Source: Schmidtea nova (taxonomy: Eukaryota). Taken from it: a stretch of 64,000 nt of DNA. The stretch lies in NCBI GenBank assembly GCA_044892505.1, contig CM097882.1:172670001-172734000 (forward strand), in the 5' to 3' direction. Position 1 is the first letter of the stretch; each line of letters begins with the position of its first letter. Below are positions 885 to 54,705 of the stretch, piece by piece. A program made the position numbers and the translations under genes. Under the pieces are notes generated by a model that saw only the letters and a list, made by a program, of their open reading frames with translations, ran no database searches and was not told where the DNA came from.

Positions 885-3800
885 CTTAAAGATAACATTA
901 TTTAAAAAATATTGAAATTTATAAATTAAATTTGAAGTCTGCAAAATTCATCAAAAATATGTTGAGATTTTAATGTTTTTTTAAAAGGCAGTCATCCACC
1001 AAATATATTTGAAAAAAATATTTCAATTGATTGAAATAATAAATAAAGCTAAAGCAGTCAGGTGAACTTGCAAATCTTTTCTGTGTTAAACTAATTACTA
1101 GCGCGAAGAAGTGAATATGATATTCACACGACATGTTTGCAAGTTTACACATTATCTGATAGATCTACCATATTCAAGTGATGTGATATCCAGTGTACGA
1201 GGAAAGTATGAAATAAAGTTATCCCAACTTTGTTTTATACTTACCTGGCGTGAAGAACCAAAAGCTTGAAATTAGTCTGCCATTGGGGTTTTGCAATGGG
1301 TACTTTATTTTAAAGTTTTTTGATATATAATCTCAAATAAATTTTATTGTTGAATTTTCTTGAAATTCAAAGTTGATTCCACGAATTGGACCAGCTTAAA
1401 CTTGGAAATTTGTGACGTTATTCAAAAATTTTCGTGCTTGCATTGTGGTAGCGACAGTGCAAAAATAAAATTTTATTCGATTAGTTGCCTTTGTCGGATT
1501 CAGATTAAACCTGTGAGATTTTAGGGAATTATATAAGGAAATTAGATTTAGTTTGTAAATTTGTTCAATTAGCTATTGCAGGAGTTCTTAAGACTTCATT
1601 TCTTGCGACACACTTAAAAATTATTTTTTAACATCTTCGACGTTAAAAAAGATAGATGTAAAATTTAATTAATTATACTTTAAAAATTAATAAAATTTTA
1701 AATCAAAGAGATTTACTGTTGATATATTTTAAGCACATGCTTAAAAAACATGGTCCTTTTTTAGACAGACTAACACGCATTTATGTATCTATATAGCTGC
1801 TATTGAATCCCCGACATTTAAAATTTTATTGTAAACGTAAAAGTGACAATGGGATATACAAAGTGAATTAGAAATGAAATTACTACATTGATTATAAAAA
1901 ATTATCTATAACAGAGTTAATTAAAATCTTTAAAGATCCAAAAATATTTCTTCCAAATTACTACTCGTTAACTCACCCAGCCACTACCACTACTGCGCCC
2001 AAATTCGTTTCTTAGTTAATTACTTTGAGTACCTAAAGCTTTTTATATTAGCCTTCTATTTTCCTTTACACTCACTAAGAATTCCTTCGAATAAATACAC
2101 AACATTACACAAACTAGACCGCTACATATTACACTTCAATTAAAACTTATGGTACTTTATATACCAAAACAAGAACACTTGCTTTTTCAAGCCGATTTCT
2201 TTTCAAAAAGTATTACTTGATTTTTAATGAATCGTCAGACAATTCAGATTCCTCTGATTCATCTGGATATGGCTCAATCAAGTTTTTCGGCTTTTATATG
2301 AGCATGGATTCAAGAAAAAATTAAAAGTACCGGATCATTCATACACCGTGTTTCACTCATGAAAATCAGCTATAATACACGTGGTTGTGCCACATCCAGG
2401 GTTATTGGTAATGATTTTTTAAAAATTTTTATGCATTAGCCATTTTAAAATGACTTTCAGATAAGTTAATTTATAAAAATAACTGTAAGGCTTTTATTTT
2501 CATCTCATAATGATCTGAAATCACTATAAAAGATTTAAAAGATTAATTATGTTATATTTGTAAGAAATTATGATTTTATAAAGATTTTTTAGTAATTATT
2601 TACAATTAAAATAAGTTAAAATCATTTTTGGTTTACATTAATAACCGCGCGCTCTATACCGCGCCGTTAATAACCGCACACATCAAAACCGCGAGCTGTT
2701 AATAATAGTGTCGATCATAAACGCGCACCATAGTGATGTATTAAAATACAATATCTGTTTGCAGTCGATTAAGGGGGAATTAAAATCTTGAACAAAATCT
2801 GTCTTGTTTTTAACTTTATTTTTCTTAACTACTGATTTACTTTCAGCCTGTCAGTCTTACATACCCTCGTTTTCGTCCAAATTAATTGATCTTCCAAAAA
2901 CCAACAATTCAGTCGAGGGATGGCACAGAGGTTTCAGCGAGCTTCTTGGTGCCAGTCATCCATCCATCTGGAAACTCATTGAGGGGTTGCAGAAAGAACA
3001 GAACATGAACGAGATGACAATTGAACAGTATATCACTGGTCAACAACCTGCTCCTAGTCAACGAATATACAGAGATACAGCTGCCAGAATCAAAGTTATC
3101 GTCGCTGATTGCGCTAATCGTCCGTTATTAAATTATCTTCGTGGGATCGTCTATATACAAGTTTAGGTCTTAACTTTTTTAGCGTTCCATTTAAAATATT
3201 ATTCAGTATTAAAATATATATGGAGAATTAGTTTATTTTAAATTTATATGTGTTGAATTTACATACTTGTGTAGGAATTTAGGTTGATTAATTAAAATTT
3301 TTTCGGATTTATTAAATAGACTTTTGTAGAATTATCTTTTGTTTATATCTACTTATGTTATGTGTAATGTGTATATAAATACTTGTTTAGGAATATAGGT
3401 ATTAAATTTATTTTCATATTTTTTTATCTAAAGTTCCTCAAGTTGGAATTTTCAAGGTCGCGGTATTATTGTTGCGTGGTTTTAAACAACGCTGTTGTGC
3501 ATGCGCGGTTTTTAACGGCGCGGCTGTGCGCACACTGATATAACTGTATACCTCATTTTTAACTATAATTTATTTATAAAACATTAATTTCCGAGGCTTT
3601 CTACCACCTTTTCTGCCTTTTGATATAGATGGCTATATTTTTTATATTTATAAATTTTATTTCTGATTTAATTTTTTGGTATTCTAATGGCATTTATTAT
3701 CCCAGTTTTGTCAATATCTGAAAACCTATCACAATCTAATAATTTTTAAATATATTTTTCAACACACGATTTTCAAACATTTTTTCGTTTAACAAATATT

Positions 3801-6800
3801 GTGTAATTGGTACATGGAATACCTGAAAGACTAAAAACATGATAAATATTTTTATAATTAAAAATAATTACTCATTTTTGGAAAACCTAATAGTTTTTAG
3901 TGAAACACGTTTCGAAATTTTTTGAAAATTTAATATAACTTAAAATATAGTACTTACGATGTTATTTCATCAATTTCCTGAAAACTCTAAGATAATTTTT
4001 TTGAAACATTTAAAAAAAAATTATCAGCCACCTTAAAATTAATTTCAATAATTGAATAGATTAAAATTTTTGGGGTGTTTTGACCCACAGAAACGGTTAA
4101 GGTATTTGAAAGTTTATATCTTTTTACATATTTTATTTTTGTGTGCGCTTATTTTTCTCTACCTCTTTTTCTACTTTATAAATGCTTTTCCAAGTAAAAC
4201 CTCAATACTTAACTGACAGGAAGAGTTTCATTTTTCTTTACTAAATTCTTATTGATTTTTTTTAATATTATAATATTATAGTCATTGAATCATTGAATTA
4301 CACTGAATTACACTACTGAATTACACGGTGTTTGATAAAATGATACAATTTTGATAGAAAATATGCATTATAAGTGCTGGTGTCCAATAGACACCAACAA
4401 GGTTTTACAAAGTTTGACATTCAAAAAATGGATATGAAGATAAAAAGAATAATAGAATTTATTGACAAGCCATGCACATGGTATAAGCCTTTGGAATAGT
4501 AAACTAATTATATGGAAAAAAACATTTAATTAAGAAAAGTAAGCTAGAAATAAAAAAAAATATTTTGTTTAGGGTAAAATTATTCGTGGGTTTATGTTTT
4601 GCATTATGTTTTGCATTATGTTTTGCATTATGTTTTGCATTATGTTTGCATTATGTTTTGCATTAATTACTACAAAAATCTCAAATAAAATTTATTTCTA
4701 GTAAATTAAAACAACTGAAATCCATGACGTCTAGTCACTTTAACTTTGGGTCTAAATAACTCCAGAAATTTGAGAATTGTTAATTGTAAATTTATCATCG
4801 CAACAATCTTACAGAGCTATTCAATTTTCTAACTCACACAAAAGGAGAATAATACTTAGTGTCTTCTAAAATTACACCTATTTCAATCATCTTTTGGAAT
4901 TAACCTTCCACTCATTTCTGTATTGAAGTTGGAACTTGTCTATTCTTGGATCGGTTTGACATCTGGAATGAGTACCAATGACGCCGTTACATTGCGCATA
5001 CTGCCCAGCATAGTCGATGGAATACTCTCAATATATGCCTGGCAAATGTGTAATATTAAATAATCTCTTTTGTGCAATCTGAATGTTTTATTGGATTCCA
5101 ATACTGGGACTAACTGAACCTTTTTCATAGTTGAGCGATAAGGACAGTTCCCATAATCTTCAAAACTATATAAAAAACTTAACAACAATTAATCAGAAGT
5201 ATTGATGCAGTAATAGTAGGTAGATGTGTGGAGCCAGGAACAAAGACATTATGACTCATTGCGTGGGCGGAAAATAAGAACAAAGACCCCTCCCTCCCCC
5301 GGGGGTAGAATTTTTTTTTGATGAGTCATCGATGAGTCATCGATGAGTCATACTTTTTTTTTCAAATTTTTTTTTCGCGCCAAAATTTTTTTTCAAATTT
5401 TTTTTTCGCGCCAAAAATTTTTTTTCAATTTTTTTTTTCGCGCCAAAATTTTTTTTTCAAAATATTTTTTCGCGCCAAAAATTTTTTTAAAATTTTTTTT
5501 TCGCGTTAAAAATTTTTTTTCAAAAATTTTTCTTTTAACAAATTTTTTTAACAAATTTTTTTTTTTCAAAATTTTTTTTTAACAAATTTTTTTAACACAA
5601 ATTTTTTTAACACAAATTTTTTTAACACAAATTTTTTTAACACAAATTTTTTTAACACAAATTTTTTTAACACAAATTTTTTTAACACAAATTTTTTTAA
5701 CACAAATTTTTTTAACACAAATTTTTTTAACACAAATTTTTTTAACACAAATTTTTTTAACACAAATTTTTTTAACACAAATTTTTTTAACATAAATTTT
5801 TTTAACACAAATTTTTTTAACAGAAATTTTTTTAACAGAAATTTTTTTAACACAAATTTTATTTTTTATTTTTATGACTCATAGATGACTCATCGATGAC
5901 TCACCATTATGACTCATCGATGACTCATCCTTATGACTCATGGATAACTCATTTCAATTTATAAATAAGTCACGTCATCGGTAACTCATAACAAAGACAT
6001 TGCAATCCATGTGCAACATTAACAAAGACATTGCAATCCACATGCAATGTAAACAAAGACATTTCCTTGCCAAATTTCATAACAAAGACATTTCAATGCC
6101 AAAAAAACTAAACAAAGACATTTCATTGCCAAAATACTAAACAAAGACATTTCATTGCCAAAAAACTAAACAAAGACATTTCATTGCCAAATTTTATAAC
6201 AAAGACATTTCATTGCCGAATTTCATAACAAAGACATTTCATTGCCAAATTTCTTAACAAAGACATTTCATAACAAAGACAATTCATTGCCAAAAAAACT
6301 AAACAAAGACATTTCATTGCCAAATTTCATAACAAAGACAATTCATTGCCAAAAAACTAAACAAAGACATTTCCTTGCCAAATTTCATAACAAAGACAAT
6401 TCATTGCCAAAATACTAAACAAAGACATTTCATTGCCAAAAAACTAAACAAAGACAATTCATTGCCAAATTTCATAACAAAAACAATTCATTGCCAAAAA
6501 AACTAAACAAAGACATTTCATTGCCAAATTTCATAACAAAGACAATTCATTGCCAAAAAACTAAACAAAGACATTTCATTGCCAAATTTCATAACAAAGA
6601 CAATTCATTTCCAAAAAACTAAACAAAGACATTTCATTGCCAAATTTCATAACAAAGACAATTCATTGCCAAAATACTAAACAAAGACATTTCATTGCCA
6701 AATTCCTAAAATAACTAAACACAGGCACGAACAGAACATTTACTAGCAGAACCCTAGTAGCAGAACATCTTTTGTGATAGTTTTTATCTGCCAAAGCTTA

Positions 6801-9800
6801 TTACTCGAACATTAATTACAATTCAACTTCATTCAGCATCATTTGATAAAACAAAGACATATCATTGCCAAAACATCTTAACAAAGACATTACAGTACCC
6901 ATGCAGTGTAAGCAACATGCTAACAAAGACATTGCAATACAGATGCAAGTTAACAAAGACATTGCAATACAGATGCAAGTTAACAAAGACATTGCAATAC
7001 AGATCCAAGTTAACAAAGACATTGCAATACATATGCAAGTTAACAAAGACATACATGCAAGTTAATAAAAAATATTCAAAAATATTCAAAAATATTCAAG
7101 GGTTCAAAATTTTTTAAAACTATATAAATATCATGTGAAAGATATTTGAGATGTGTGTGTGTATGTTTTCAAACCTTCAAGATGTCAAAAAAAATAATTA
7201 AACTACCACAACGTAATATATTTTTATTTTCCTACCCATTTTGACGCTGCAATTCATGTGCAATATTAACAAAGACATTGCAAAACAGATGCAAGTTAAC
7301 AAAGACATTGCAGTTGCAAGCCAAGTTAACAAAGACAAGATGTCAAAAAAGACTAATTATTAATCACAAATGCATTCTCTTAACCAATGATAAAAATAAA
7401 TTAAATGAAAATACATATATTTTTGTACGACATTATATGTATATCACATGATATTCATCAATATTAATACCACAAGATTCACACTTATCAATATTTTTTA
7501 AACATTTTGAACAAATAATGACATGTCCACAAGGTAAATATAAAATGCCAACTCTATTGATATTACATATTGAACATGTGAGAAATCTTTGTTTGGTTTC
7601 TTCCAATTTCTTGGTTACATTTACCTCTAAAATATCCACATTCAGCATGAAAGTTCGAATAATAGTACGATATTTTCCAAGTCGAAATTCCATACATGAC
7701 CAGAAAATGGTATTCAAATTGAATTCAGTAGAATCGAGATCATTAAGAATCATAAAAAAACTGGATAATTTCATCATGGATTTATCATATCCGAATGATT
7801 CTGTTAAACCGATAATTAATTTATTATTGAAGGATTTGAATAATTTTGAAAGAATGTCGATATCGCATTTCTCAATCGATGTTAAAAGGTCATCAAGTAT
7901 TAAAAAGGATTGGATCCAATTGTCCAAAGTAATGAAATTATCTGTAACCTATTTTAAAATAATTAATTTAAATATATATTTTTAAAACTAACTTTATTTG
8001 TTTCTTTATTCATTTTCGTCAATCAATACTATTTACAAGTTGTATTTATATTGCAAAAATCAACCAATAATAATCTTTTTGAATGTATAGTAAAGATATT
8101 GAGTTTTTTTAGTTTTTTTAGTTTTGTTATATATATCATCCTAGTTAAAATTTTATTAGTATAGTTGTTATATTAAATAATAAACATGAAAAGTAAATAA
8201 CCTTTTTGAATGTATAGATACAATATATATTAAAGCTATTGATGATATATATAACTATTTTAAAAGATGAAGAGGTAAAATAATTAATGTCATTATTCAG
8301 ACCATATTTTTAATCTTGCGATGAAATTATTAAAAAGCTTGAATATATGTTATGATGGATATGTTTCTTAGGATATCTTGCTTGATACTTTGTTTTAATT
8401 GTTGAAGTTTTTTAAACATCTGACAAAATCCCCTAAATTATTATTTATATCTCAAATGAATTACTTATAAAATTGTAATAGATATATACCAGCTTTTATT
8501 ACGTTGTGGTACTTTATAAATATTTTACGTTGTGGTATTTTAAATTGTAAAATTTTATTTAGAACATGAATTTTGATAATCCGCTTTGTTTTTTACAAGA
8601 AATTAAAACTATGATGTACAGTTTGATATTATTTTAATTTATTTTCGTGCGTATTTCCAATAATTATTTTGTCACAGACTATATATTTCCAATAGTTATT
8701 TCACAATTTTGTTACAGACTATATATTTTCAATAACTATTTCAACATTTTATTTTGTCACAGACTATCATTTTATGATATTAATTTCATGCTAGCAGAAC
8801 ATTGCGAACAGAACATTTAGTAGCAGAACCTATTCTGTGATGGTTTTTATCTGCCAAAGCTTATTACTCGAACATTTATTGCAATTCATTCAGCATCATT
8901 TGTTATAATATTTTCACCAATTAATATTTTCTCTATTGGTTTCCTCATTTTAATGTAGAATTTACTCTAACAATTTATTGTCACTCGTATAATTTTCATT
9001 AAATTTATCCACTAGCCGAACATTTCGAACAGAACCTTTAGTAACAGAACATCTTTTGTGATGGTTTTTATGTGCAAAAGCTCATTATTCATACATATAC
9101 TAAAATAACAATCATTAGCATATGAGCTTCGATCAATGTAACAGACAAATTGTGAAAGTATATTACAATTACTGATACTCTTTTAATGACAATTATTATG
9201 TGAATATTTCTTGTTTGATGAATTGCTATGTATGTTTGATGAATTTCAATATATTTTTGATGAATTTCATAGTATTTGTGAGAATTTGTGGATATTTTCT
9301 TGTAATTACGCTATAGAATTATGATATTTCATATATTTAATGATACTTTGTGATGACATTTCATATATATTTGATATGTATTTCTGATGTATTTGTGATA
9401 TTTTGTGATAATATTTTGTGTATGTTTGTATTTTCTTCTTTTTTTGTGATAATTTGTACATGAATATCTATGTATTTTGTGATGAAATTTTATATGATAT
9501 ATTTTTAATATGTTATCAAATAATATTTGATGTATCTAATATCATTTTGTGAGTATTTTAATGTATTTGCACTATAGTATGACGATATTTCATGCATTCA
9601 ACCTCATTTTAAAGTAGAATTTACTGTAATGTTTGAAACATTTATTTCCATTCATATAACTTTCATTAATTTTATACTGTAGCATAACATGACTAGCAGA
9701 ACATTTAGTAGCAGAACCCTAGTATCAGAACATCTTTTGTGATGGTTTTTATGTGCAACAGCTCATTACTTGAACAATTATTACTGTTACATTAAGGTAT

Positions 9801-12800
9801 GTTGATATATGATAGTATATTTTGTATGTGTAATGAACTTTTGTATGTGATTATATCCTTTGTATATGATAATATTTCATATTTGTGATGATATAACATA
9901 TATTTTCAGATATTTTGTTATGTAATGACACTAGTATGTAGATATTTCTTTAATGATTATTGTTGTAAATTTGATGAATTTCTGTGTATTTTTGATGATT
10001 TTCTATGTACTTTGTGATGATATTTAATATGATCTTTTTTTTCTTTTTTTAATATTTGGTATAATTTTGATGATTTCTATATATTTTTTCTATGTTATCA
10101 AACTATAGTAAGATAATATTTGATTCATCTAAAGTCATGTATCTAAAGAGTATTTCATGTATTTGCACTATAGTATGATGACATTTCATGCATTCAACCT
10201 CATTTTAAAGTAGAATTTAGTGTAATGTTTGAAAGATTTATTTCCATTCATAATACATTGTTACATTTTCATCAAATTTATTCAGTAGCAGAAAATTGCT
10301 AGCAGAACATTGTGAGCAGAACCCTAGTAGCAGAACCTATTCTGTGATGGTTTTTATGTGCAAAAGCTCATTAGCTAAACATTTATTACTGTTAAATTAT
10401 AGTATGATGATATATGTAATTATATTTTGTAATTATATATTGTAATAAACTTTTGATATTTTGTATGTAACGAATTTCTATGTACATTTTATATTTTGTG
10501 TATGTATGATAATATTTCATATGTGTTGATATTTCTGATGATATTTCATATAATTTTGATATTTATGTATATTTATTATGTAATTGCACAAGTATGTAGA
10601 TATTTCTTTAATGAATATTGTTGTGAATTTGATTTAATATCTGTATATTTTTTTGATGATTATCTATTTAATTGTACTATAGTGTGATGATATTTAATGT
10701 ATGTAATGATACTTTGTAATGATATCCTTTGTATGACACATTTTATTTTGATATTATATATATATTTTACACTAGTATGATAATAATTCATGCATTTGAC
10801 TGACTATAACATGACAACTTTTCATGTGAATGATATCCTTTGTGTATGTATGATATTTCTTTTAATTATTAAGTGTATTTGGAATATATCATGATAATAT
10901 TTTGTCTGTATTTGCATTAAAGTATGATGATATTTCATGTTTGTAAAGATATTTTATGATGATATTTTATATATGTAATGATATCCTTTGTGTATAGGAT
11001 TTATTTCTATGTACTTTTGATATTTTGTATGGTAATATTTCATGCGTTATAACATTTTGTGTAATGATATTTCATGTATGTAATGATACTTGTATGCGTT
11101 TTAATAATTTTCTATGTATTTCAATGTATTTTTATGTTATCAAACAAAAATATGATAATCTTTTATATATTTTCTTTGTGATTCTTTGATATTTTATGGG
11201 CATATTTCATATATTTTGTGAGTATTTCTAATGTTTAGACACGATAATGTGATAATATTTTGTGCATATGTTTGTATTTTTCTTTGTGGTTTACATAAAA
11301 GTATAATAATATTTCATATATATGATAAACTTTTGTGCAATGTGATAATTTGGCACTGGTGATAATATTCTTTTTATGATTATTATTGTATGTATTTCTA
11401 GTGTGTAAAAATTTCCTATAATTTTGTGTGTATTTTGTGATGATATTTCATGTATCTTTGCTATTTTCTATGTAATTTACACTATAATAATAATATTTCA
11501 TGCATGTGATAATCTGTAATGTTATTTCTTATATATGATATTTTGTATGATGAATCTATATATCTGTGAAAGTTTCTGTATTTTGTGGATATTTCATGTA
11601 TTTCTATGTTATCAAACTATAGTAAGATGAAATTTTATGTATGTTTGTATTTCAGATATTTTGTATGTATATTTATTCACTATAGTATGGTGATATTTTG
11701 TACGTGTGTGATAAATTTTTATGTATTTTGTATGTATTTTTGATAATAGTTCATATATGTAATGTTTTTGTGTGTGACGAATTTCTATGTACTTTTCATA
11801 TTTTGTGTGTAATTTTGGTGATTTTTTATGTAATTGCAGTATGATGATATTTTGTATGTAATTTGCACAATAGTATAATGTTATTTCATGTATGTAATGA
11901 TACTTTGTGATAATATTTCAAGTATGTAATGTATATTTCATATATTTTTGATATATTTGTACTATAATTTAAGAAAAATTTGTATGATTATCTCAATAGT
12001 ATGATAATTTTTCATGTATTTGTCATAGTGACCGAACATTTAGTAGCAGAACATTGCGAACAGAACCCTAGTAGCAGAACCTATTCTGTGATGGTTTTTA
12101 TGTGCAAAAGCTCATTACTTGAACATATTTCTAATAATAAATATATTGTTACCTAATTTTCAATGTCCCTTATCATCATTTTAATGTAACAGTTTAGCAA
12201 AACTTTCAATCATTGGTTGGTTAATAAAATGGTTGGTTATTAAATTGGTTGATTTTTGCAATATAAATACAACTTGTAAATAGTATTGATTGACGAAAAT
12301 GAATAAAGAAACAAATAAAGTTAGTTTTAAAAATATATATTTAAATTAATTATTTTAAAATAGGTTACAGATAATTTCATTACTTTGGACAATTGGATCC
12401 AATCCTTTTTAATACTTGATGACCTTTTAACATCGATTGAGAAATGCGATATCGACATTCTTTCAAAATTATTCAAATCCTTCAATAATAAATTAATTAT
12501 CGGTTTAACAGAATCATTCGGATATGATAAATCCATGATGAAATTATCCAGTTTTTTTATGATTCTTAATGATCTCGATTCTACTGAATTCAATTTGAAT
12601 ACCATTTTCTGGTCATGTATGGAATTTCGACTTGGAAAATATCGTACTATTATTCGAACTTTCATGCTGAATGTGGATATTTTAGAGGTAAATGTAACCA
12701 AGAAATTGGAAGAAACCAAACAAAGATTTCTCACATGTTCAATATGTAATATCAATAGAGTTGGCATTTTATATTTACCTTGTGGACATGTCATTATTTG

Positions 12801-15800
12801 TTCAAAATGTTTAAAAAATATTGATAAGTGTGAATCTTGTGGTATTAATATTGATGAATATCATGTGATATACATATAATGTCGTACAAAAATATATGTA
12901 TTTTCATTTAATTTATTTTTATCATTGGTTAAGAGAATGCATTTGTGATTAATAATTAGTCTTTTTTGACATCTTGTCTTTGTTAACTTGGCTTGCAACT
13001 GCAATGTCTTTGTTAACTTGCATCTGTTTTGCAATGTCTTTGTTAATATTGCACATGAATTGCAGCGTCAAAATGGGTAGGAAAATAAAAATATATTACG
13101 TTGTGGTAGTTTAATTATTTTTTTTGACATCTTGAAGGTTTGAAAACATACACACACATCTCAAATATCTTTCACATGATATTTATATAGTTTTAAAAAA
13201 TTTTGAACCCTTGAATATTTTTGAATATTTTTTATTAACTTGCATGTATGTCTTTGTTAACTTGTATCCACATTGCAATGTCTTTGTTAACTTGCATATG
13301 TATTGCAATGTCGTTGTTAACTTTCATATGTATTGCAAGGTCTTTGTTAACTTGCATATGTATTGCAATGTCGTTGTTAACTTGCATATGTATTGCAAGG
13401 TCTTTGTTAACTTGCATATGTATTGCAATGTCTTTGTTAACTTGCATATGTATTGCAATGTCTTTGTTAACTTGCATATGTATTGCAATGTCTTTGTTAA
13501 CTTAGATCTGTATTGCAATGTCTTTGTTAACTTGCATCTGTATTGCAATGTCTTTGTTAGCATGTTGCTTACACTGCATGGGTACTGTAATGTCTTTGTT
13601 AAGATGTTTTGGCAATGATATGTCTTTGTTTTATCAAATGATGCTGAATGAAGTTGAATTGTAATTAATGTTCGAGTAATAAGCTTTGGCAGATAAAAAC
13701 TATCACAAAAGATGTTCTGCTACTAGGGTTCTGCTAGTAAATGTTCTGTTCGTGCCTGTGTTTAGTTATTTTAGGAATTTGGCAATGAAATGTCTTTGTT
13801 TAGTATTTTGGCAATGAATTGTCTTTGTTATGAAATTTGGCAATGAAATGTCTTTGTTTAGTTTTTTGGAAATGAATTGTCTTTGTTATGAAATTTGGCA
13901 ATGAAATGTCTTTGTTTAGTTTTTTGGCAATGAATTGTCTTTGTTATGAAATTTGGCAATGAAATGTCTTTGTTTAGTTTTTTTGGCAATGAATTGTTTT
14001 TGTTATGAAATTTGGCAATGAATTGTCTTTGTTTAGTTTTTTGGCAATGAAATGTCTTTGTTTAGTATTTTGGCAATGAATTGTCTTTGTTATGAAATTT
14101 GGCAAGGAAATGTCTTTGTTTAGTTTTTTTGGCAATGAATTGTCTTTGTTATGAAATTTGGCAATGAAATGTCTTTGTTTAGTTTTTTTGGCAATGAATT
14201 GTCTTTGTTATGAAATTTGGCAATGAAATGTCTTTGTTAAGAAATTTGGCAATGAAATGTCTTTGTTATAAAATTTGGCAATGAAATGTCTTTGTTATAA
14301 AATTTGGCAATGAAATGTCTTTGTTTAGTTTTTTGGCAATGAAATGTCTTTGTTTAGTTTTTTTGGCATTGAAATGTCTTTGTTATGAAATTTGGCAAGG
14401 AAATGTCTTTGTTTAGTTTTTTGGCATTGAAATGTCTCTGTTATGAAATTTGGCAAGTAAATGTCTTCGTTTAGTTTTTGGCAATGAAATGTCTTTGTTA
14501 TAAAATTTGGCAATGAAATGTCTTTGTTATAAAATTTGGCAATGAAATGTCTTTGTTTAGTTTTTTGGCAATGAAATGTCTTTGTTTAGTTTTTTTGGCA
14601 TTGAAATGTCTTTGTTATGAAATTTGGCAAGGAAATGTCTTTGTTTAGTTTTTTGGCATTGAAATGTCTCTGTTATGAAATTTGGCAAGGAAATGTCTTT
14701 GTTTACGTTGCATGTGGATTGCAATGTCTTTGTTAATGTTGCACATGGATTGCAATGTCTTTGTTATGAGTTACCGATGACGTGACTTATTTATAAATTG
14801 AAATGAGTTATCCATGAGTCATAAGGATGAGTCATCGATGAGTCATAATGGTGAGTCATCGATGAGTCATCTCTGAGTCATAAAAATAAAAAATAAAAAT
14901 TTGTGTTAAAAAAATTTGTGTTAAAAAAATTTGTGTTAAAAAAAATTGGTTAAAAAATTTATGTTAAAAAAAAAATTTTGAAAAAATTTTTTTGGCGCGA
15001 AAAAAAAATATAAAAAAATTTTTGGCGCGAAAAAAAAATTTGAAAAAAAATTTTTGGCGCGAAAAAAAATTTGAAAAAAATTTTTGGCGCGAAAAAAAAT
15101 TTGAAAAAAAAGTATGACTCATCGATGACTCATCAAAAAATTTTTTTTTACCCCCCCGGGGGGTCTTTGTTCTTTTTTTCCGCCCACGCAATGAGTCATA
15201 ATGTCTTTGTTCCCGGCTCCACACATCTACCTACTAGTAATGTCGAATGAGACATATAAGAATAATCTTTTTGATATTGACGATGAAATGATCAATTTCT
15301 GCAAAGACCAACTGCTGCAGTTCCAACCAAGTGATGATTATCAGGAAGGTTTGTAGTTGACAATCTTATTCATAGAAGATATTTCTTCAGAGCAGTTGCT
15401 GAACTTCACCGTGCGAAATAGATGTAAAAGATTACATAGTCCTTGAAGATCTGAATGTTTAGACAACAATTAAACAAAGAAGAAGAGAAGGGCGTTTGGA
15501 ACATTTGAAAATTTGTTGTGCAGATTTATGTAAATGCTTGGTTCACATCTCTCTTAGCCTTTTCCGCCCCTCGAATTCATCTCTACCTTGTTAAAGATAT
15601 TAATAAGTATAAACAAGAAAATGTAATTATTTCGAATGTTGCTCTAAAGAAGTTTCTTTCTATCTCGATCTTTATATTTGAAAATTACCAGAGTTAACCT
15701 AACTTTTCTTGGAGGTAGTGTCCCCTAAACATTGATGAAATAAAGTGAAATTTTCACAGGTTATTTTTTTCGACTAAAAACAGAATGATAACGTCCCAAG

Positions 15801-16264
15801 TAGATTTCAAAAAATAAATTTTTTATAATAAGTACTACCCTAATGTGTAAATGTGACAGAAACTGAAAACCTCATGAGATGACATGAAAATATAAAAATT
15901 GAGTAAATTATTTGATAATTTTATTTTAGAGTAAAAAACAATTAATACATAACTTAATGAATAATAACTTTTTTAATAACAGTGTTTGTCACCCATAACA
16001 TAATAATTCAGCAATTAAAGAAATAAATTTATTATAAGGTTTTATTAAGTTGATGTCTGATACTTTCAAAGAACCGTGAGAATGAACAATAATATTCTCC
16101 ACAGTTATGCAGTCTAATTAAATCATTATTATAAAGTGATAAATAGAGAAGAAAGAGGGAAACAGTTATTAAGGGTTAGGACTTTTGATAATCATGTTCA
16201 AAGTTCAAAGTTAAACCAGCAACTTTTACCGAGTATCAGTATAGTTTTTTATATCACACACACA

Positions 16265-16348
<84 letters not shown>

Positions 16349-19300
16349 GCCACTGTCAAGGAATTATTGCACCTTATTGATGTAATGTTTAAAGAAGGAG
16401 TGTAAAAGATACGTTATATATTTACCATACATGGTATATTAAAAGAAAAAACTTTTATCATGTATATAATACTTAATAAATTCAAATAAGACTATTTTTG
16501 ACGGGCTTGCTTTATGATTATTATTAAGACGTATGTTCATAAAAATATTAATTCTTTTATTATGAACATCCAAAAACAAATTTGTAAAATTTTAAAATAA
16601 TGTAGATATATGATCTTTACTTAGAATTTACCTTCTTGAGCTACATGTTGATCTCCAAATAAAAACATAAAGTCAGAATTTTCAGTTGCAAGTTTATTGT
16701 ACATAACTTTCAAATCCTCTCGAAGTTCTCTCTCTCCGTATCCTTTACTTAATGAAATTTCAAAGAAGCTTAAATCAGCCGCAAAAGCGGCAAGACGCGA
16801 TAAACTCCGCTTTCCTGACCCACTAACCGCAACGAGCAAAGCATGACCTCCATCCATTCTGAGGATTCTGTGAATACTATTCAGATGTTCCAGTGCATCA
16901 TCAAATAATACTAAATCTAATATTCCTTGGTCTAATTCGTTATAACTTTCAATTAACTGAAATTACGTTTTAGATATCTTATAGTAAGTCAACATTATTA
17001 ACCTCTTGAAAAAATGCTTTAATAACTGCATAATCCTGTAAATCCTCATAAAGTCTTGGTTCATCTTCTAATGATGCTGTCCAATAATCACCATATAAAA
17101 TTGGATTAGTTTGAACATATGACAAGTTTTTCGGGAATTCATCGTTTATGATGTTTAGTAATATTCCCTAAAATAAAATATAAAAAATAAAAAAACACAA
17201 AAACATTCTGCTAAAAGCAAATAATTAAGTTATCATTATAATAATAATTGTTTAAATATGTATATTTAGTCTTTAATAGTAAAAGAAATCATTCTAGAAT
17301 TTAAGATTAGTTAAGAATATTTCCAATAAAGAAATCAAAATCTATCAATAAATAACAGAAGAAGTTGAAGTAACTTAACCCTTTAAGAGCGGAATTAAAT
17401 TTCATAAAAAGTCAGGAAATATGTCAATTATCCGTCAAAAATAAAATTAAAGATATAATTGTGATTTTCAATAGCTATTCTATTCAATAGTATTCAGATG
17501 TATCCGCACCTCGCACTTGAGAGCTGTGGACGGTGATTCGGATTTATCCGTATCTCGCATCTAAAGGGTTAAAGTAATTCATCAATTAAACAGTAAAAAT
17601 AATAATAGCGGCAGTCATTTATTTATTGCTATGAAATGGTATTTGATTCATAGCATTTCCAAGGAATAAAGAAATTAATTCGAATCGGTTAACTAATTCT
17701 CAGATGAATTATTTTCCATTGAAATTAATAGTATTAGCATAACCTGTCCCGTATGATAAGCTGACAACACGTCAAAATTTGGCCTAATATAGGCTAAACA
17801 CATTTGAAAAAGCCAATGCAGAGAATTTGTGTTGGATATGAAAAAAAACATTGCAAAAAAATAATTTAGCCCCAATTGATTTTACAATTATTCAGTGGTA
17901 TTGTAATGTCTTTTATAAATATGTTTTTTTTGAAAATTAGATTACAGGAAAACTACGTGGTGCGCCCAATAAGTCGTGAGACTAATATAGAAATAATAAT
18001 AGTAAAATAATTGATACAGACATATTTAAACTTCAACATATATAGTTAAAGAAAATGTATTTTGTTTTAATAATCCATTATTGTTTAAGTATATTTTTGC
18101 GAACATTCGAAAAATGCCTCTGGAAAGTATTCAATACCGTAGCGTTATTCGCTTTCTCTTTCTGAAAGGAAAAAATAGAGAAGAGGTTCTTTCTGAACTG
18201 AAAGCTGTTTAGCAACAAGAGTGCCCATCCACAGCAACAATTTATCGTTGGTTCAATTACTTTCAGAGTGGTAGAACCTCCGTGGTGGACGAAGAAATAT
18301 CTGGAAGACCCTCAGAAATTGATGAAAAAATAACGCAAAAGCTGCAGACAATCGTGCAAAACGAAAGAAAAATAACGACGAGAGAGCTCACAACCCGTCT
18401 AAGTGTGAGCAAAGGCACTGTGCATACTCTCCTCACTCTAAGTGGTATTCGAAAACTATGTTCCCGTTTTGTGCCACGCTTCTTAATGGTGTAAATGCGA
18501 CAACGACGCTTGGAATGCTGCTTGGAGAATCTGCAGATCAGGACCAATGTTGGAGACCGTTTCATTGATAATATCATCACTGTGGACGAGACACCGTTGT
18601 CCCTTTATGTCCCCGAATCTAAAAGAGAGTCTCAAGAATGGAAACTGCCAGGAGAAAGCAGCTCACTGAAAATGCGGTCCTCAACTTGCCACCAAAAGGC
18701 TCTCATGCTGACGGTGTTTTGGGACGCCAATAGCATTATTCTGAATGACTTTACTGAATCCGGCGTGAAGATCAATAGTTCTTTCTACTCCAACATCGTG
18801 CAGCAAGCAAGGAAGGCACGACGCAAGAGCAGAGTGTGTGATCTCTATCTTTTACACGACAATGCTCCCATCCACACCAGCAGCGTTTCCATGGCCAAAA
18901 TTGAGCGTTGCGGGCTCAATTTGCTTCCTCTATTTACCATACTTGTTCTAAATACAAAGTTTTGTGTTGATATCTTAAGTCTTTCTATTTTAGTCTCACG
19001 ACTTATTGGGCGCACCACGTATATGATATATTTATACTAAGATAGGATAAATATTTAGTGTCTGACCCCATGTGTTTTCTATTCATAAAATTAAAGCTCA
19101 ACAATAGTAAAACTTTATTTACAAAACAAAATTTTGATCAAATAAATTTCACAAAGATTCATAGAATTAATTTTTTTAAAGATTTACTACTAGGTAAATC
19201 ATTTTATTAAATGTTACTGTTAGTTTGATCCGTTTAGTAACTGAAATATTTGGTTTTCTTTACATAGAAGGGCAAAAGCATAGTCGCTTTTATATGCTTG

Positions 19301-19514: not shown

Positions 19515-20274
19515 ATTATTATCAATAATTCTCATAATGACTATAGATCAAAAATTTTTTTTTTATAAACAATAACACAATATTTCGGCACAGCCTTTAT
19601 CAAGTGTGTATTTCTATCGTTATATTTACTTAATCCTAAATAGTAGCCTTAATTATTTTTTTAATATTTTATAATGATTTTATTTGATGAAAAAATTTAT
19701 TTTAATTTTTTTGTGCGAATTGAATGTTGATGGATGGTTTGTATTTTTTTATGTAAAAAGTCTCGGAAGCTAATTTTTGTAATGAATTTTTGAATCCCTC
19801 TTGTAGAATCTGGCATTTTGTTTCTTCTATAGATGGAGTTGTTTTATGTACTTTCTCCCAGTGTTCGTAATAATTACTGGTTTTGATTTTAGTGTGTTCA
19901 TTAAGTCGGGTGCGAAAAGTTCTATGTGTTTCTCCTATGTAAGTAGCGTCACATTTTTGGCAAGAAAGTTTATATACTATATTTTTGGAAAAGCAAAAGC
20001 ATCGGGTTGTGGAACGGCAAAGACATTTATGTTTGGAGATGTTGGAAATTGGTGGCTTTCGGAGTTGTGATTTTAACGGTGCGGAGGTTATGAACGTTGG
20101 ACGGATGTGGATAGGCAAATCTGTTTGATTAAAAATGTTGGTGATTTTGATTTATAAAATATTAAAAAAATAATTAAGGCTACTATTTAGGATTAAGTAA
20201 ATATAACGATAGAAATACACACTTGATAAAGGCTGTGCCGAAATATTGTGTTATTGTTTATAAAAAAAAAATTA

Positions 20275-20334
<60 letters not shown>

Positions 20335-23300
20335 CTTAAAAATGATTGCTGATTTCAACTCACTCCTTCAAAATATAATTTAATATTAATATTTGAAATT
20401 TAATCTTCATCTTATTTGCACATCACTAATAACATTTTAGAGAAGTGTTGCCACCTTTGGAAAATTGTTGACCCGGACATTTCAGTAAAAAGATTTTTTT
20501 TGAACTCGAGAAAAAGAAAATCATTGGAACATGAAAATGAGTTTTTATTATTAAAATTAAATAACATACAAAAATAGATTGCTTCTTAAAAAACAGGAAA
20601 ATGTTTTGTAAAGACAATGTAAATTTTATTTTTAAAACTGTATTTTATATTGCTCCTTTCTGCTTATAAAAAATTTTTATTTTCCTGTTGTTGTCGCATT
20701 TTATTTTTAAATTGTTAAAAAATAATAATTCGGCTTAAACTTGATTAAGCGTTAAACGGCTCCTTTTATCCCACCACAATGAACCCATTACTGAAAAAAT
20801 TCGTTCGACTAAGGAATTACTGGCGGAAATGCTGAATAAAAATTCCATTAACTTCCTCACTACAGGATATTCTCCTTCCCTCATTGCTTTTTCATTCTTT
20901 TCGTTTTCCGTGATATATTTAGCTAATATATCATTTTAATGAGCATAGCTCGTGAAATAAATCGTCACATTATGATTCAATGTCCACGTTTAGATATGCA
21001 CTTATTGCAATACACAATACTATTAATACAGTGCCGAAATATTGTGTACTTTTTTTTAATAAATTTTGATCTATAGTCATCCATTATNNNNNNNNNNNNN
21101 NNNNNNNNNNNNNNNNNNNNNNNNNNNNNNNNNNNNNNNNNNNNNNNNNNNNNNNNNNNNNNNNNNNNNNNNNNNNNNNNNNNNNNNNNNNNNNNNNNNN
21201 NNNNNNNNNNNNNNNNNNNNNNNNNNNNNNNNNNNNNNNNNNNNNNNNNNNNNNNNNNNNNNNNNNNNNNNNNNNGAAGTCACAAGTATAAATAGATTTG
21301 CAGTTGGCCTGAATTCACTTGAATTCAAGTTAATTTTTTATTTAAAATACAAAATATGTTTTAAAATTAAGATCTCCGATCTTACATTGGCGTTCGCGAG
21401 CCGCATTTTGTTAACCCCTGTTTTTGAAGTTAAACTACAATGTTATATCTGTAGATGAATTAACCAATTTAAATAAGTTAATTACCACAATTCAGAAATA
21501 AGAATACTAAATCAGTAAATTACACAATTCGGAAATAATAATACTAAATAAGTAAATTACACAATTCAAAATTATATTTTATACAAATAATATTCAAACA
21601 AATTTATAATTCATAATATTAAACGAATTTTAATATTATTAATTCACATATAACATTCCTCCGTCTTATTCGGCTCTCAACTCGAAATCGTCGTATAATC
21701 GCGGCTTCACATTTCTATTGTGTCTTTTCGGGTATCTTCCTGTGGTCTCTTTATTCTCTCCCGTCGACGTTGCTTCGTTGACCTCTTCCAATCTCTCCGA
21801 TTCTTTTGTTCTTGACCATATACTTGTTCCCCAACTGTCCGTCTCTATCTTTGCTATTTCTGATCTTACTGGTATAATCTTAATCTGGTTATAATTACGA
21901 TGTATTATCTTCCCATCCTCCTCTCTTCTTAATTTAAAAGTCAAATCATTTACTTTCTCCAGTATTTCATATGGGCCGCAGTATTTCTCCCCAAATTCTT
22001 GTTTCTGCACTTCTTTTACTAATGTCGAATCTCCTATTTTGACGTCTGTATTCCATCTATTTCGATTGTAGATCTTTTCGTTATATACTCTTGCTTTATC
22101 AGTTCTCTTTTTTACTTCCTCTTCTATGTTCGTTCCCTCTGTTCTCAGTTTCCTCATGAATTCTCCGTAGTCTTGTGGTCCTATTATGTCGCTTGTTTCT
22201 TCTCTTACTTTTGGTGTTCTGCCGAACATTAATTCTATCGGTTTATATCCAGTACTTTTATGGACTGTGTTCCTTACTCCATATTCTACCACGTGTACTG
22301 TTGAATCCCATTCCTTCGTCTTTCTGTCGAACATGGTCGCTGCCATCATACTTTTTGCTGTTTGGAACATTCTTTCGATTAAGCCGTCAGATTGTGGGTC
22401 GTACGGTGAAGTACAGGTTTTCTTTGTTCCTATCAGACTGCACAACCCTTTAAACATATTTGACTCAAAATTCTTTCCCTGATCTGAGTGAATCCTTTCT
22501 GGTATACCGAATTTTGTGATCCATTCTTCCCAAATTGCTCTAGCCACTGTTTCTGTCGTAATTTCTGGGAGTGCTATTAGACATGGGTATTTTGTGAAGT
22601 AGTCAATTAATCCCAGAATGTATCTATTTCCTTTTCTTGTCATTGGAAAAGGTCCCGTAATGTCTATTCCCAAAAATTCTAAAGGTCTACTGCTTATAAA
22701 ACTCTGTAGTGGTGCTCTTACTCTTCCGTTTATATACTTGTTGTGTTGACAGGCTATACATCGGTTTACTCTATCTAAAAAGGTTCTCGTTGATATTTGG
22801 CCAATAGTATCTTTCTTTGGCTGCTCTCGTGGTTCTTTCAATGCCGACATGTCTCAATTCTCGATGTAATTCGTCAATATATCTATTTCTTTCTTCTTCT
22901 GGTATTATTTTCCTATGTCCTTCTGCTTTCTTAATCATAAGATCTCCTTCGCTGACATACATAAGCTACGCTTTTTTCCATAGTTCTAAGTGTTTCCGGT
23001 TTTGTTCTTTTCTCCCTTGCTGTATCCAATCGATTATTTGTCTAACTTCTGAATCCGTCTTCGTATTTATTTGACATATAATTCTTTCTGACTTGTTCTC
23101 TTCTGTATAATTGTTTTCTTCCTCGTAAACTTTTACATTTCGTTTCTTTCTTGAGTCCGCGTGTTTCAGTCGGCATTGTTCGCATGGAGTAATTCTTGAC
23201 AATGCGTCCGCATTGCAATGGTCTTTCCTTTTTCTAAATTCCACTTTCATGTCATATATTTCTAGTTCTGCTTTCCATACACAATATTGAGAGGTGTTTG

Positions 23301-53600: not shown

Positions 53601-54705
53601 ATTTAAATATGTTGATATTTTTAATTTATCGCTTACTTATTAATTATTTCCACAATATCTTTTGCAAAATTAAATTTTACAGAATAATAAAATAAACTAG
53701 AAAAATTTTATATTCAGAAATTCAGCAAAAGTTTAAAAAAACTTCAGCTAAATTTTAAAAAAGAACTACAGCGAAATTTAAAAAATATAAAACCATCTAA
53801 AAAACGTATTTTTTTCGCCCAAAAAAAATTGAATTTTTTTTCACGGTACACTTGAGAATGTCTCGCGGCACACAGATTGGGAACCACCAATATAAATACA
53901 CACTTCAAAAGTATATGTCGAAAATTCCTGTGTCAATTTAAAAAATAATTTTATTCTATAGCCTTTATAAAAAAATAAATGAAAATTTCTGAAATCTAAG
54001 AGAAAGGATTAAAAAATAAATATGTTAATCGTAACTGCAAAATCTGTAAAATTTAGAATTTGTTTTAAAATAATGAAATTTTCTAAATAACTAAATATTA
54101 ATACGAACTTGAGATGGCAGAATTTCAAAGCTTTCTGATTCAAAGTAATCTGTTACTGCTTTGGACAAATATGGATGTAGAATTCTAGGACAATCAGCTT
54201 TTGGGAATAAATCTTGAATAAGACCCATAAACAATGGTACATCATCATAAATAAATTTCGGTAAATTCATATCCCTCAAGGCACGCATAAGAAGTTTTTT
54301 TTCTGATACTTCCGGATTTTCTCGTCGAATCCCACCTGCCATAACTAAAACCGATTTAAGAGCTCTCAACCCAAAATCATAATGATGTTGTTGTGATAAT
54401 TGTTCTTTGGCCAATTTATAAATTGTTGTCATCTTTTTTGCAAGCTCCTGTTATGATTTTAAATTACAAACATTTTTTTTCAAATTAGTACCTTTGCAGT
54501 TTGAAATCCTTGGGAAAACAGCATTATTTCACAAATGTATTCCAAGTCGGGAACAATCACTACCACAGGTCGAAATAATGTTTTCACACTTTCTGGTAGC
54601 TCCGTTCTTCCGGCGTAGCCCGGATTCATTGTAACAAAAACCCCGACATTATGTAGAAGAGTGATTTCATGCCCTTCAAACTTAAATATAAATCATTTCA
54701 TTATA

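What the first reader, a model, noticed from the sequence alone, without database searches (positions are those of the whole stretch)
12299..12879. Intact, spliced, BIR-less IAP-like RING gene carried by the element
Seen: the ORF track starts at a TTG, but an upstream ATG mini-exon (MNKETNK) joins in frame through a 44-nt GT-AG intron, the same length as the host dynein intron at 54448-54491. TATAAA and inverted CCAAT boxes lie just upstream. The 178-aa product ends in C-x2-C-x11-C-x-H-x3-C-x2-C-x6-C-x2-C with a terminal aromatic residue (IYI). Established: this spacing and C-terminal position match IAP RINGs (cIAP/XIAP/DIAP), which dimerise through the RING tail. Inference: a BIR-less IAP RING could heterodimerise with or degrade host IAPs, or act as an E3 on its own, tuning apoptosis or immunity for the element. 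The stretch [13 protein letters not shown] may be a UBA remnant. It is the only undisrupted TE-borne ORF in a window where every other one is broken.
Basis: partly seen in the sequence, partly recalled or inferred. Interest (0 to 1): 0.82.

Follow-up and report, generated by a model that had tools for sequence, protein, structure and literature searches.

The report
Transposon-borne truncated apoptosis-inhibitor gene
A 10-kb jumping element that has lost its own replication genes carries two identical copies of a small spliced gene made from the back half of an apoptosis-inhibitor protein, which probably works by pairing with the host's own inhibitors rather than acting as an enzyme itself.

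Summary
The spliced 178-aa RING gene is real (12299-12319 joined to 12364-12879). It is not unique: an identical copy lies at 8013-7433 on the minus strand. Both sit inside the ~2.9-kb terminal inverted repeats of a 10,021-bp element (5215-15235) with a 6-bp target duplication and AG...CT ends. This is most likely a young, non-autonomous Maverick/Polinton, inserted in an intron of a DNAH10-like dynein gene.

The protein belongs to a family of about 23 BIR-less proteins, 17-50% identical to it. Profile and fold comparisons support a true IAP-type UBA domain (best fold match cIAP1 UBA, Z 7.0), followed by a helix and an IAP-type RING.

The new point: the family keeps the dimer-tail aromatic residue (21 of 22) but lacks the loop-2 proline and the linchpin arginine (1 of 22 each, against 25 and 18 of 33 BIR-IAPs). 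The best reading is a non-catalytic, MDMX-like partner of host IAP RINGs. That is inferred from sequence: expression, binding and activity are untested, and intactness may only reflect youth. IAP cargo in Mavericks is already reported; this BIR-less form was not found in my literature searches.

The parts
5215..15235 (.). Whole element, 10,021 bp; probable non-autonomous Maverick/Polinton derivative; ends AGTAGG... / ...CCTACT
5209..5214 (+). Left target-site duplication AGTAAT
   Evidence: chance about 7e-4
15236..15241 (+). Right target-site duplication AGTAAT
5215..8068 (+). Left terminal inverted repeat, 2,854 bp: 11-, 15-, 29/30- and 31/32-bp tandem arrays plus one copy of the RING gene
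12244..15235 (-). Right terminal inverted repeat, 2,992 bp; differs from the left mainly in array copy number
12299..12319 (+). Exon 1 of the right gene copy (7 codons, MNKETNK)
   Evidence: the only ATG-opened in-frame donor inside the repeat
12320..12363 (+). 44-nt phase-0 intron, GTTAGT...ATAG, 7% GC
12364..12879 (+). Exon 2 (171 codons plus stop): two N-terminal helices, UBA-like domain, long helix, RING, tail
12490..12633 (+). IAP-type UBA-like three-helix domain (exon-2 residues 43-90)
12736..12876 (+). IAP-type C3HC4 RING (C125-C159) plus 12-residue tail with Tyr at the cIAP1 Phe616 position; no loop-2 Pro, no linchpin Arg
12244..12267 (+). Candidate core promoter at the inner edge of the repeat (inverted CCAAT 12244-12248, TATAAA 12262-12267); weak evidence
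7433..8013 (-). Identical second copy of the gene (exon 1 8013-7993, intron 7992-7949, exon 2 7948-7433)
8069..12243 (.). Non-coding interior of degenerate repeats; longest stop-free frame 101 codons and compositionally biased
886..16629 (-). Host intron of about 15.7 kb (approximate ends) of a DNAH10-like axonemal dynein gene that holds the element

Best explanation
The gene is accessory cargo of a Maverick/Polinton-type element, duplicated because it lies inside the terminal inverted repeat.

Shown: the gene structure, two identical copies, the element's ends, a conserved family, and a UBA-like domain plus IAP-type RING without BIRs.

Inferred, most to least secure:
(1) The element lost its polymerase, integrase and capsid genes and moves with the help of an autonomous Maverick.
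(2) The gene derives from the C-terminal half (UBA plus RING) of an IAP.
(3) It is spliced and expressed outward from the inner edge of each repeat.
(4) The protein is a weak or non-catalytic RING that pairs with host IAP RINGs through its conserved tail. Like MDMX with MDM2, it lends the tail aromatic to the host protomer while its own E2 site is poor. It would thereby use up, or redirect, host IAP ligase activity, with the UBA binding ubiquitin chains, and so shift cell-death or immune signalling in the element's favour. The direction of that shift is unknown.

The confidence given is for the whole chain, including step 4. The element and domain assignments alone are about 0.8.
For: Element:
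- 6-bp duplication, AG...CT ends, 2.9-kb inverted repeats. 6-bp duplications and (AGT)2//(ACT)2 ends are Maverick hallmarks (PMC8097293; PMC10045372).

Family:
- Top phmmer hit is 50% identical over residues 3-171, E 1e-49; 9 proteins at E<=1e-10.
- The closest homologue has K then VTDDF where the spliced product has K then VTDNF.
- Without the intron the first in-frame ATG is residue 58, inside the UBA.

UBA:
- Profile-profile score 22.7, P 0.0004, against a maximum of 12.0 in 100 column shuffles.
- The model of residues 35-97 has cIAP1 386-449 as best match among 48,161 chains (Z 7.0, rmsd 3.5, 62 aligned), with XIAP UBA and many other UBAs in the list.

RING residues:
- Loop-2 Pro 1 of 22 against 25 of 33 BIR-IAPs; linchpin Arg 1 of 22 against 18 of 33.
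- Tail aromatic 21 of 22 against 19 of 33; tail of 12 residues in 18 of 22 (count corrected).
- In the supported 11-member core clade: Pro 0 of 11, Arg 0 of 11, tail Tyr 10 of 11.
- cIAP1 uses Met575, Ile604 and Arg606 in cis and Phe616 in trans; R606A and F616H impair transfer (PMC6349121).
Against: - No transcript, protein, binding or activity data.
- XIAP itself has Tyr at the linchpin and is still an E3 (PMC12326332). 15 of 33 BIR-IAP RINGs also lack Arg and 8 of 33 lack Pro. Five family members have Lys there, and the query keeps the Val573-equivalent Ile and the His588 equivalent.
- The residue counts are not phylogenetically independent.
- UBA evidence is moderate: Z 7.0 lies within the range of common helical arrangements, Foldseek found no clear match, the UBA template had only 3 sequences, and Pfam shows no UBA among the 25 of 35 families listed.
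- No Maverick core gene is present, the end motif is AGTAGG rather than AGTAGT, and the boundary can also be read as TA...TA ends with a 4-bp duplication.
- The genomic context of the homologues was not seen, so a Maverick link is shown for this locus only.
- The RING tree cannot place the family inside the IAPs.
Confidence: 0.42

Rival explanations
1. Same element and origin, but the protein is an active homodimeric E3 with its own substrates. The N-terminal helices and UBA recruit targets, and it pairs with an E2 that does not need the linchpin Arg.
For: All eight zinc ligands, the loop-1 hydrophobic residue and the tail aromatic are kept in the query. The tail would also be needed for a homodimer. 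Non-Arg linchpins occur in active E3s such as XIAP and Doa10.
Against: Several cis determinants are lost together (Met575, loop-2 Pro, Ile604 and Arg606 equivalents), and the positions vary freely across the family while the tail is fixed.
Confidence: 0.28
2. At this locus the gene is a passenger. It was functional in the parent element but is silent or irrelevant in this non-autonomous copy, and is intact only because the insertion is recent and the repeats are copied from each other.
For: 0 substitutions in 977 + 680 aligned bases of the arms, coding and non-coding alike. The promoter motifs are weak. No expression data.
Against: The gene, its intron and its start codon survived while the whole 4.2-kb interior is non-coding repeat. 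The family is conserved at 17-50% identity. This rival concerns the locus, not the family.
Confidence: 0.18
3. The element is not a Maverick but another cut-and-paste transposon with long, internally repetitive arms (Foldback/MULE-like or IS3EU/GingerRoot-like) that captured a host gene.
For: No Maverick coding sequence. Arms built of tandem arrays. The boundary can be shifted one base to give TA...TA ends with a 4-bp duplication. MuDR-related elements make 4-10 bp duplications.
Against: IS3EU/GingerRoot need TA...TA ends together with a 6-bp duplication, which no reading gives. The 6-bp reading gives AG...CT ends one base away from the (AGT)2 motif. Gene-bearing ~2-kb repeats are reported in polintons.
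Confidence: 0.15
4. The RING partners a non-IAP tail-dimerising ligase (MYLIP/IDOL, MUL1, MGRN1 or Mind bomb type), or derives from one.
For: IDOL RINGs tie with IAP RINGs in the fold searches. The RING tree is unresolved at its base.
Against: Sequence and profile scores favour IAPs (E 6e-15 against 7e-8 for MYLIP). The UBA-before-RING order matches IAPs. Mind bomb RINGs form a separate supported clade.
Confidence: 0.1

Closest known systems
cIAP1/cIAP2/XIAP/BIRC7-type IAPs (UBA-RING half)
   Same: RING spacing, 12-residue tail with the aromatic at the Phe616 position, and a UBA-like domain upstream.
   Different: No BIR and no CARD; lacks the loop-2 Pro, the linchpin Arg and the Met575, Ile604 and Arg614 equivalents; has two extra N-terminal helices; carried by a mobile element.
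Adintovirus/Maverick accessory IAP homologues (Starrett et al., PMC8502044; passages and a supplement search seen)
   Same: An IAP-related accessory gene in a Polinton-type element.
   Different: The paper gives no domain detail in what I saw (one mention in the text, one map label). Here the gene is BIR-less, spliced, inside both repeats, and the only gene of the element.
Nematode Maverick cargo genes wasp/krma (Widen et al., bioRxiv 10.1101/2022.07.12.499685; passages seen)
   Same: Intron-bearing cargo next to a terminal repeat, forming its own protein family.
   Different: That cargo is single-copy, outside the repeat, in largely complete Mavericks, and encodes proteases or kinases.
Butterfly polintons with gene-bearing ~2-kb repeats (bioRxiv 10.1101/2025.02.07.637071; passages seen)
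   Same: Long terminal repeats that contain genes, giving two copies per insertion; some elements stay mobile without polB.
   Different: The duplicated genes there are core genes (hexon, adenain), not a host-derived ubiquitin protein.
MDMX in the MDM2-MDMX pair (functional analogue; PMC6349121, PMC7010608 and PMC12326332 passages)
   Same: Proposed logic: a RING that binds E2 poorly but supplies a tail aromatic in trans.
   Different: A different RING family, and the role is shown biochemically for MDMX but only inferred here.
Burro giant Ty3 elements of Schmidtea with BIR, RING and BCL2-like domains (PMC6431247 passages)
   Same: A transposon carrying apoptosis and ubiquitin modules.
   Different: An LTR retrotransposon, with the domains inside a polyprotein and BIR present.

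Membership tests
Maverick/Polinton | 6-bp target-site duplication | tested here: met
   AGTAAT on both sides, chance about 7e-4; a 4-bp reading with one-base-longer arms is also possible
Maverick/Polinton | Long terminal inverted repeats | tested here: met
   2,854 and 2,992 bp
Maverick/Polinton | Terminal motif (AGT)2//(ACT)2 or (AG)3//(CT)3 | tested here: inconclusive
   AGTAGG//CCTACT, 5 of 6 bases of the motif given for vertebrate elements
Maverick/Polinton (autonomous) | pPolB, integrase, ATPase, protease and capsid genes | tested here: not met
   Interior has no stop-free frame over 101 codons. So it is not an autonomous Maverick; it is filed only as a probable non-autonomous derivative
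Maverick/Polinton | An autonomous partner sharing these ends | not testable with these tools
   No eukaryotic genome collection; the terminal motif occurs only at the two ends within the window
IAP (BIRC) family | At least one BIR domain | tested here: not met
   No BIR in the query, none listed for the 21 aligned members, 0 of 17 near-full-length members with the BIR motif. Not an IAP by definition; IAP-derived
IAP (BIRC) family | C-terminal IAP-type RING with a short aromatic tail | tested here: met
IAP (BIRC) family | UBA domain upstream of the RING | tested here: met
   Moderate: hhalign P 0.0004 against shuffles; top fold match cIAP1 UBA, Z 7.0; Foldseek unclear
Canonical active RING E3 | Loop-2 Pro and cationic linchpin after the last Cys | tested here: not met
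   Query reads C-E-S-C-G; family Pro 1 of 22, Arg 1 of 22, Lys 5 of 22. These residues are not strictly required for activity
Dimeric RING E3 (IAP type) | RING homo- or heterodimerisation | not testable with these tools
IS3EU/GingerRoot | TA...TA ends together with a 6-bp duplication | tested here: not met
   TA...TA ends come only with a 4-bp duplication; the 6-bp duplication comes with AG...CT ends
MULE/Foldback-type | Long repetitive arms and a duplication in the MuDR range | tested here: inconclusive
   Arms fit; 6 bp is inside the 4-10 bp range quoted for MuDR relatives but off the usual 9 bp (recalled); there is no transposase to test

The most novel reading that the evidence does not exclude
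Maverick-type elements of invertebrates carry an undescribed family of BIR-less 'pseudo-IAPs' (UBA-helix-RING). These have shed E2 activation but kept the dimer tail, and act as MDMX-like adaptors that hijack or deplete host IAP ligases. In this host a stripped, non-autonomous element persists with this gene as its only cargo, doubled in both repeats and flanked by arrays of E2F-, AP-1- and Sox/TCF-like sites, as a mobile cell-death or immune modulator.
Probability: 0.25. Interest if true: 0.82.

Novelty: new variant of a known kind. Interest (0 to 1): 0.58.

Why it matters
Mavericks are known to carry IAP-like and other host-modulating cargo, but what this cargo does is mostly untested. This locus gives a small, intact, well-modelled protein with a sharp prediction: it dimerises but catalyses poorly. 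That can be tested in vitro. If it holds, it would be a new way for a mobile element to control IAPs, through the RING tail rather than through BIR-binding motifs. It would also be a natural example of a ligase turning into a pseudo-ligase. The non-autonomous element, whose only gene sits in both terminal repeats, also bears on why such stripped elements persist.

Tried and rejected
Searches that gave nothing or little:
- The word-indexed search with the single protein found nothing (42 candidates, none at E<=0.001). The full HMMER scan found the family; the alignment search returned 8 proteins, 4 of them new.
- ESM Atlas gave generic RING hits under 0.9 and no usable hit for residues 1-118.
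- Whole-model fold searches were filled by the RING and by generic helical bundles. The UBA showed only when folded alone, and Foldseek missed it.
- A single-profile HMM search for the UBA was marginal: best domain 9.2 bits against up to 9.7 in 50 shuffles.
- Rfam: 0 matches over 5000-15500.

Considered and rejected:
- The 177-codon antisense frame over the gene is chance: 6.4% of 5000 synonymous shuffles reach the observed length.
- Alternative splice sites: the only other AG between 12340 and 12430 that was listed (12370) gives 20 aa. The only other ATG-opened donor (12232) lies outside the repeat and upstream of the TATA.

Could not be settled:
- dN/dS: the two copies are identical.
- RING trees are poorly resolved. 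One clade for the 23 family rows is not rejected (p-AU 0.60) but not shown.
- Host: the best dynein match is 78% identical, and exact look-ups of two window proteins failed.
- The original Polinton paper and the Schmidtea genome paper were not held, and I had no tool for Repbase.
Full report
1. The observation. The gene is there as described. ATG 12299 opens a 7-codon exon, a 44-nt GT..AG intron follows, and exon 12364-12879 completes a 178-aa protein ending in C-x2-C-x11-C-x-H-x3-C-x2-C-x6-C-x2-C plus 12 residues. Unspliced, the ATG frame stops after 16 codons, and the first in-frame ATG of exon 2 is residue 58. The intron is 7% GC against 27.5% for the exon, and host introns of 44 and 46 nt exist in the dynein gene. 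The frame is not chance (0 of 2000 shuffles). The promoter motifs are present but common in such AT-rich DNA. The main correction is that the gene occurs twice: 8013-7433 on the minus strand is identical over all 581 nt. The mariner, Penelope and Ty3 frames that I checked are interrupted.

2. The element. Both copies lie at the inner ends of inverted repeats, 5215-8068 and 12244-15235. The element is 10,021 bp, starts AGTAGGTAG, ends CTACCTACT and is flanked by AGTAAT on both sides (chance about 7e-4). The arms are built of tandem arrays. Two long segments, one including the gene, show 0 substitutions in 977 and 680 aligned bases; segments nearer the ends show 2 in 76 and 3 in 221. The insertion is therefore young, or the arms are copied from each other; an assembly collapse of the arms cannot be excluded, though the arrays differ in copy number. 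The 4.2-kb interior is degenerate repeat with no credible ORF and no Rfam match. The element sits in a ~15.7-kb intron between two consecutive exons of a DNAH10-like dynein gene. A 6-bp duplication and (AGT)2//(ACT)2 ends mark Mavericks (PMC8097293, passages), and 6 bp is the Polinton length, whereas IS3EU/GingerRoot have TA...TA ends (PMC10045372, passages). I call it a probable non-autonomous Maverick, at about 0.8. Against this: it has no core gene, the end motif is one base off, and the boundary can be shifted by one base to give TA...TA ends with a 4-bp duplication. The host is an AT-rich animal that I could not identify (best dynein match 78%). A planarian-like host is a guess from memory and was not tested.

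3. The protein family. A scan of 1.84 billion representatives gave 299 hits at E<=0.001, of which 150 were listed. The best, P0001 (UniParc UPI00060C5360, no organism given), is 50% identical over almost the whole length and has K-VTDDF where the spliced product has K-VTDNF. This is modest support for the junction. I assigned about 23 short proteins to the family by an N-terminal profile that excluded the RING and by inspection; the weakest assignments (P0012, P0028, P0062, P0068, P0152) rest mainly on the RING or on likeness to other members. Of 20 clusters looked up, 16 are singletons, and most come from ENA, JGI/IMG or Logan contigs of 0.5-23 kb. None has a BIR motif (0 of 17 near-full-length members). 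Their DNA context was not seen, so whether they too ride in Mavericks is open. RING trees give a supported 11-member core with the query (98/95) and an unresolved base; one clade for all 23 rows is not rejected (p-AU 0.60).

4. Domains. The model of exon 2 has mean pLDDT 88.6, with helices 8-23, 30-40, 43-52, 56-68, 75-90 and 94-122, then the RING. The RING is IAP-type: the ten best solved-sequence hits are cIAP1, cIAP2, XIAP and BIRC7, and the family profile scores E 6e-15 for cIAP2 against 7e-8 for MYLIP. Fold searches do not separate IAP from IDOL RINGs. The family profile aligns over residues 49-86 with UBA regions taken from two BIR-bearing hits (score 22.7, P 0.0004; best of 100 column shuffles 12.0). 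A model of residues 35-97 alone (pLDDT 85.9) has cIAP1 386-449 as best match of 48,161 chains (Z 7.0, rmsd 3.5, 62 aligned), with XIAP UBA (Z 4.9) and other UBAs below it. The evidence is moderate: Z under 8 can be generic, Foldseek gave nothing clear, and a plain HMM search was within shuffle range. The architecture is the UBA-RING half of an IAP without BIRs or CARD.

5. Mechanism. In cIAP1, Val573 and Met575 contact the E2; His588, Ile604 and the linchpin Arg606 hold the donor ubiquitin; and Arg614 and Phe616 act in trans from the partner's tail. R606A and F616H impair transfer (PMC6349121, section 8 read). A loop-2 Pro is a general E2 contact (PMC7010608, passages). The query keeps the Val573 (Ile), His588 and Phe616 (Tyr) positions. 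It has Asn, Ser, Gly and Val at the Met575, Ile604, Arg606 and Arg614 positions, and Glu in place of the Pro. Across the 22 family members with a full RING, Pro is present in 1 and Arg in 1 (Lys in 5), against 25 and 18 of the 33 BIR-bearing hits. The tail aromatic is present in 21 of 22 against 19 of 33 (the script printed 22 because it counted a truncated record, corrected here). P0002 and P0151 lacked a full RING and were left out, as were P0008 and P0055. The counts are not independent, so the Fisher P values overstate the case. Selection thus seems to keep what a protomer gives in trans and to drop what it needs in cis. That is the pattern of an MDMX-like partner (heterodimers with one inactive scaffold). 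I therefore favour a weak or non-catalytic partner of host IAP RINGs that depletes or redirects them (0.42 for the whole chain). A stand-alone E3 remains possible (0.28), because XIAP has Tyr at the linchpin and still works (PMC12326332, passages and section 6). A silent passenger at this locus gets 0.18.

6. Against what is known. IAP homologues are reported as adintovirus/Maverick accessory genes (PMC8502044, passages; a search of its one held supplement, cut when stored, showed an 'IAP' map label and no RING or planarian entry). Intron-bearing Maverick cargo is known in nematodes, gene-bearing ~2-kb repeats in butterfly polintons, and BIR/RING domains in Burro retroelements. The ingredients therefore have precedent. 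I found no description of a BIR-less UBA-RING family, or of a non-autonomous Maverick carrying only such a gene, in searches. That library lacks most subscription journals and Repbase, and bioRxiv supplements were closed, so absence is not established. Other papers were seen as passages only and added nothing on this point: PMC2836005, PMC8917759, 10.64898/2026.10.13.758929 (78), PMC8869227, PMC5803895. It is not an IAP by definition (no BIR) and not an autonomous Maverick (no core genes).

7. Verdict. A real, intact, duplicated cargo gene of a probable non-autonomous Maverick, belonging to an apparently undescribed IAP-derived family with a testable pseudo-ligase signature.

Noticed in passing
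window 5252-5940 and 14815-15198: The outer arms carry arrays that match transcription-factor consensus motifs (labels recalled): 8 of the window's 9 E2F-like TTT[CG][CG]CGC sites, 19 of 25 AP-1-like TGA[CG]TCA sites; 86 of 105 AACAAAG (Sox/TCF-like) sites lie within the element. They are tandem copies, so not independent, but they resemble a viral enhancer tuned to dividing or stressed cells.
   Followed up: partly
window 6744-13736: A box of about 85 bp containing TAGCAGAAC recurs seven times, once in each arm and five times in the interior, and nowhere else in the window. The interior may have grown by repeated duplication of a unit of about 600-660 bp.
   Followed up: no
window about 4900-5208 and 15242-15600: Both flanks look like one older decayed transposase interrupted by the element; the right flank reads through a QPSDDYQE stretch that resembles a Sola2-type motif (recalled). 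No homologue search was left to test it.
   Followed up: partly
protein P0055 (UPI00060138C0): Its first ~56 residues match this family and the rest is ELP1: probably a gene model that fused a related copy with a neighbouring host gene, hinting at further insertions in a related genome.
   Followed up: no
window 12212-12248: The two ATTGG boxes are 32 bp apart, a spacing recalled from NF-Y cell-cycle promoters; only the inner one is in the repeat, so the two gene copies have different upstream DNA.
   Followed up: no
window 12327-12860 (-) and 7452-7985 (+): 177-codon antisense open frame over the gene; compatible with chance (6.4% of synonymous shuffles).
   Followed up: yes
window 17954-19300 and 36376-37700: Two similar mariner copies (97% over the 300 bp compared), each with a broken transposase frame.
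   Followed up: partly
window 21470-26860: A Ty3/gypsy element on the minus strand with protease, RT-RNase H and integrase in separate frames and matching repeats at both ends.
   Followed up: no
window 46654-47835, 19702-20151 and about 32900: Penelope-like RT/GIY-YIG fragments; the longest is 393 codons and is out of frame with its upstream part.
   Followed up: partly
window 37976-38854: A 292-codon frame of unclear origin with only a sub-threshold Pfam match.
   Followed up: no
clusters of P0144 (15 members) and P0026 (10 members): Near-identical full-length family members recur on many short contigs from environmental assemblies, as expected of an abundant mobile or viral gene; context unchecked.
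   Followed up: partly
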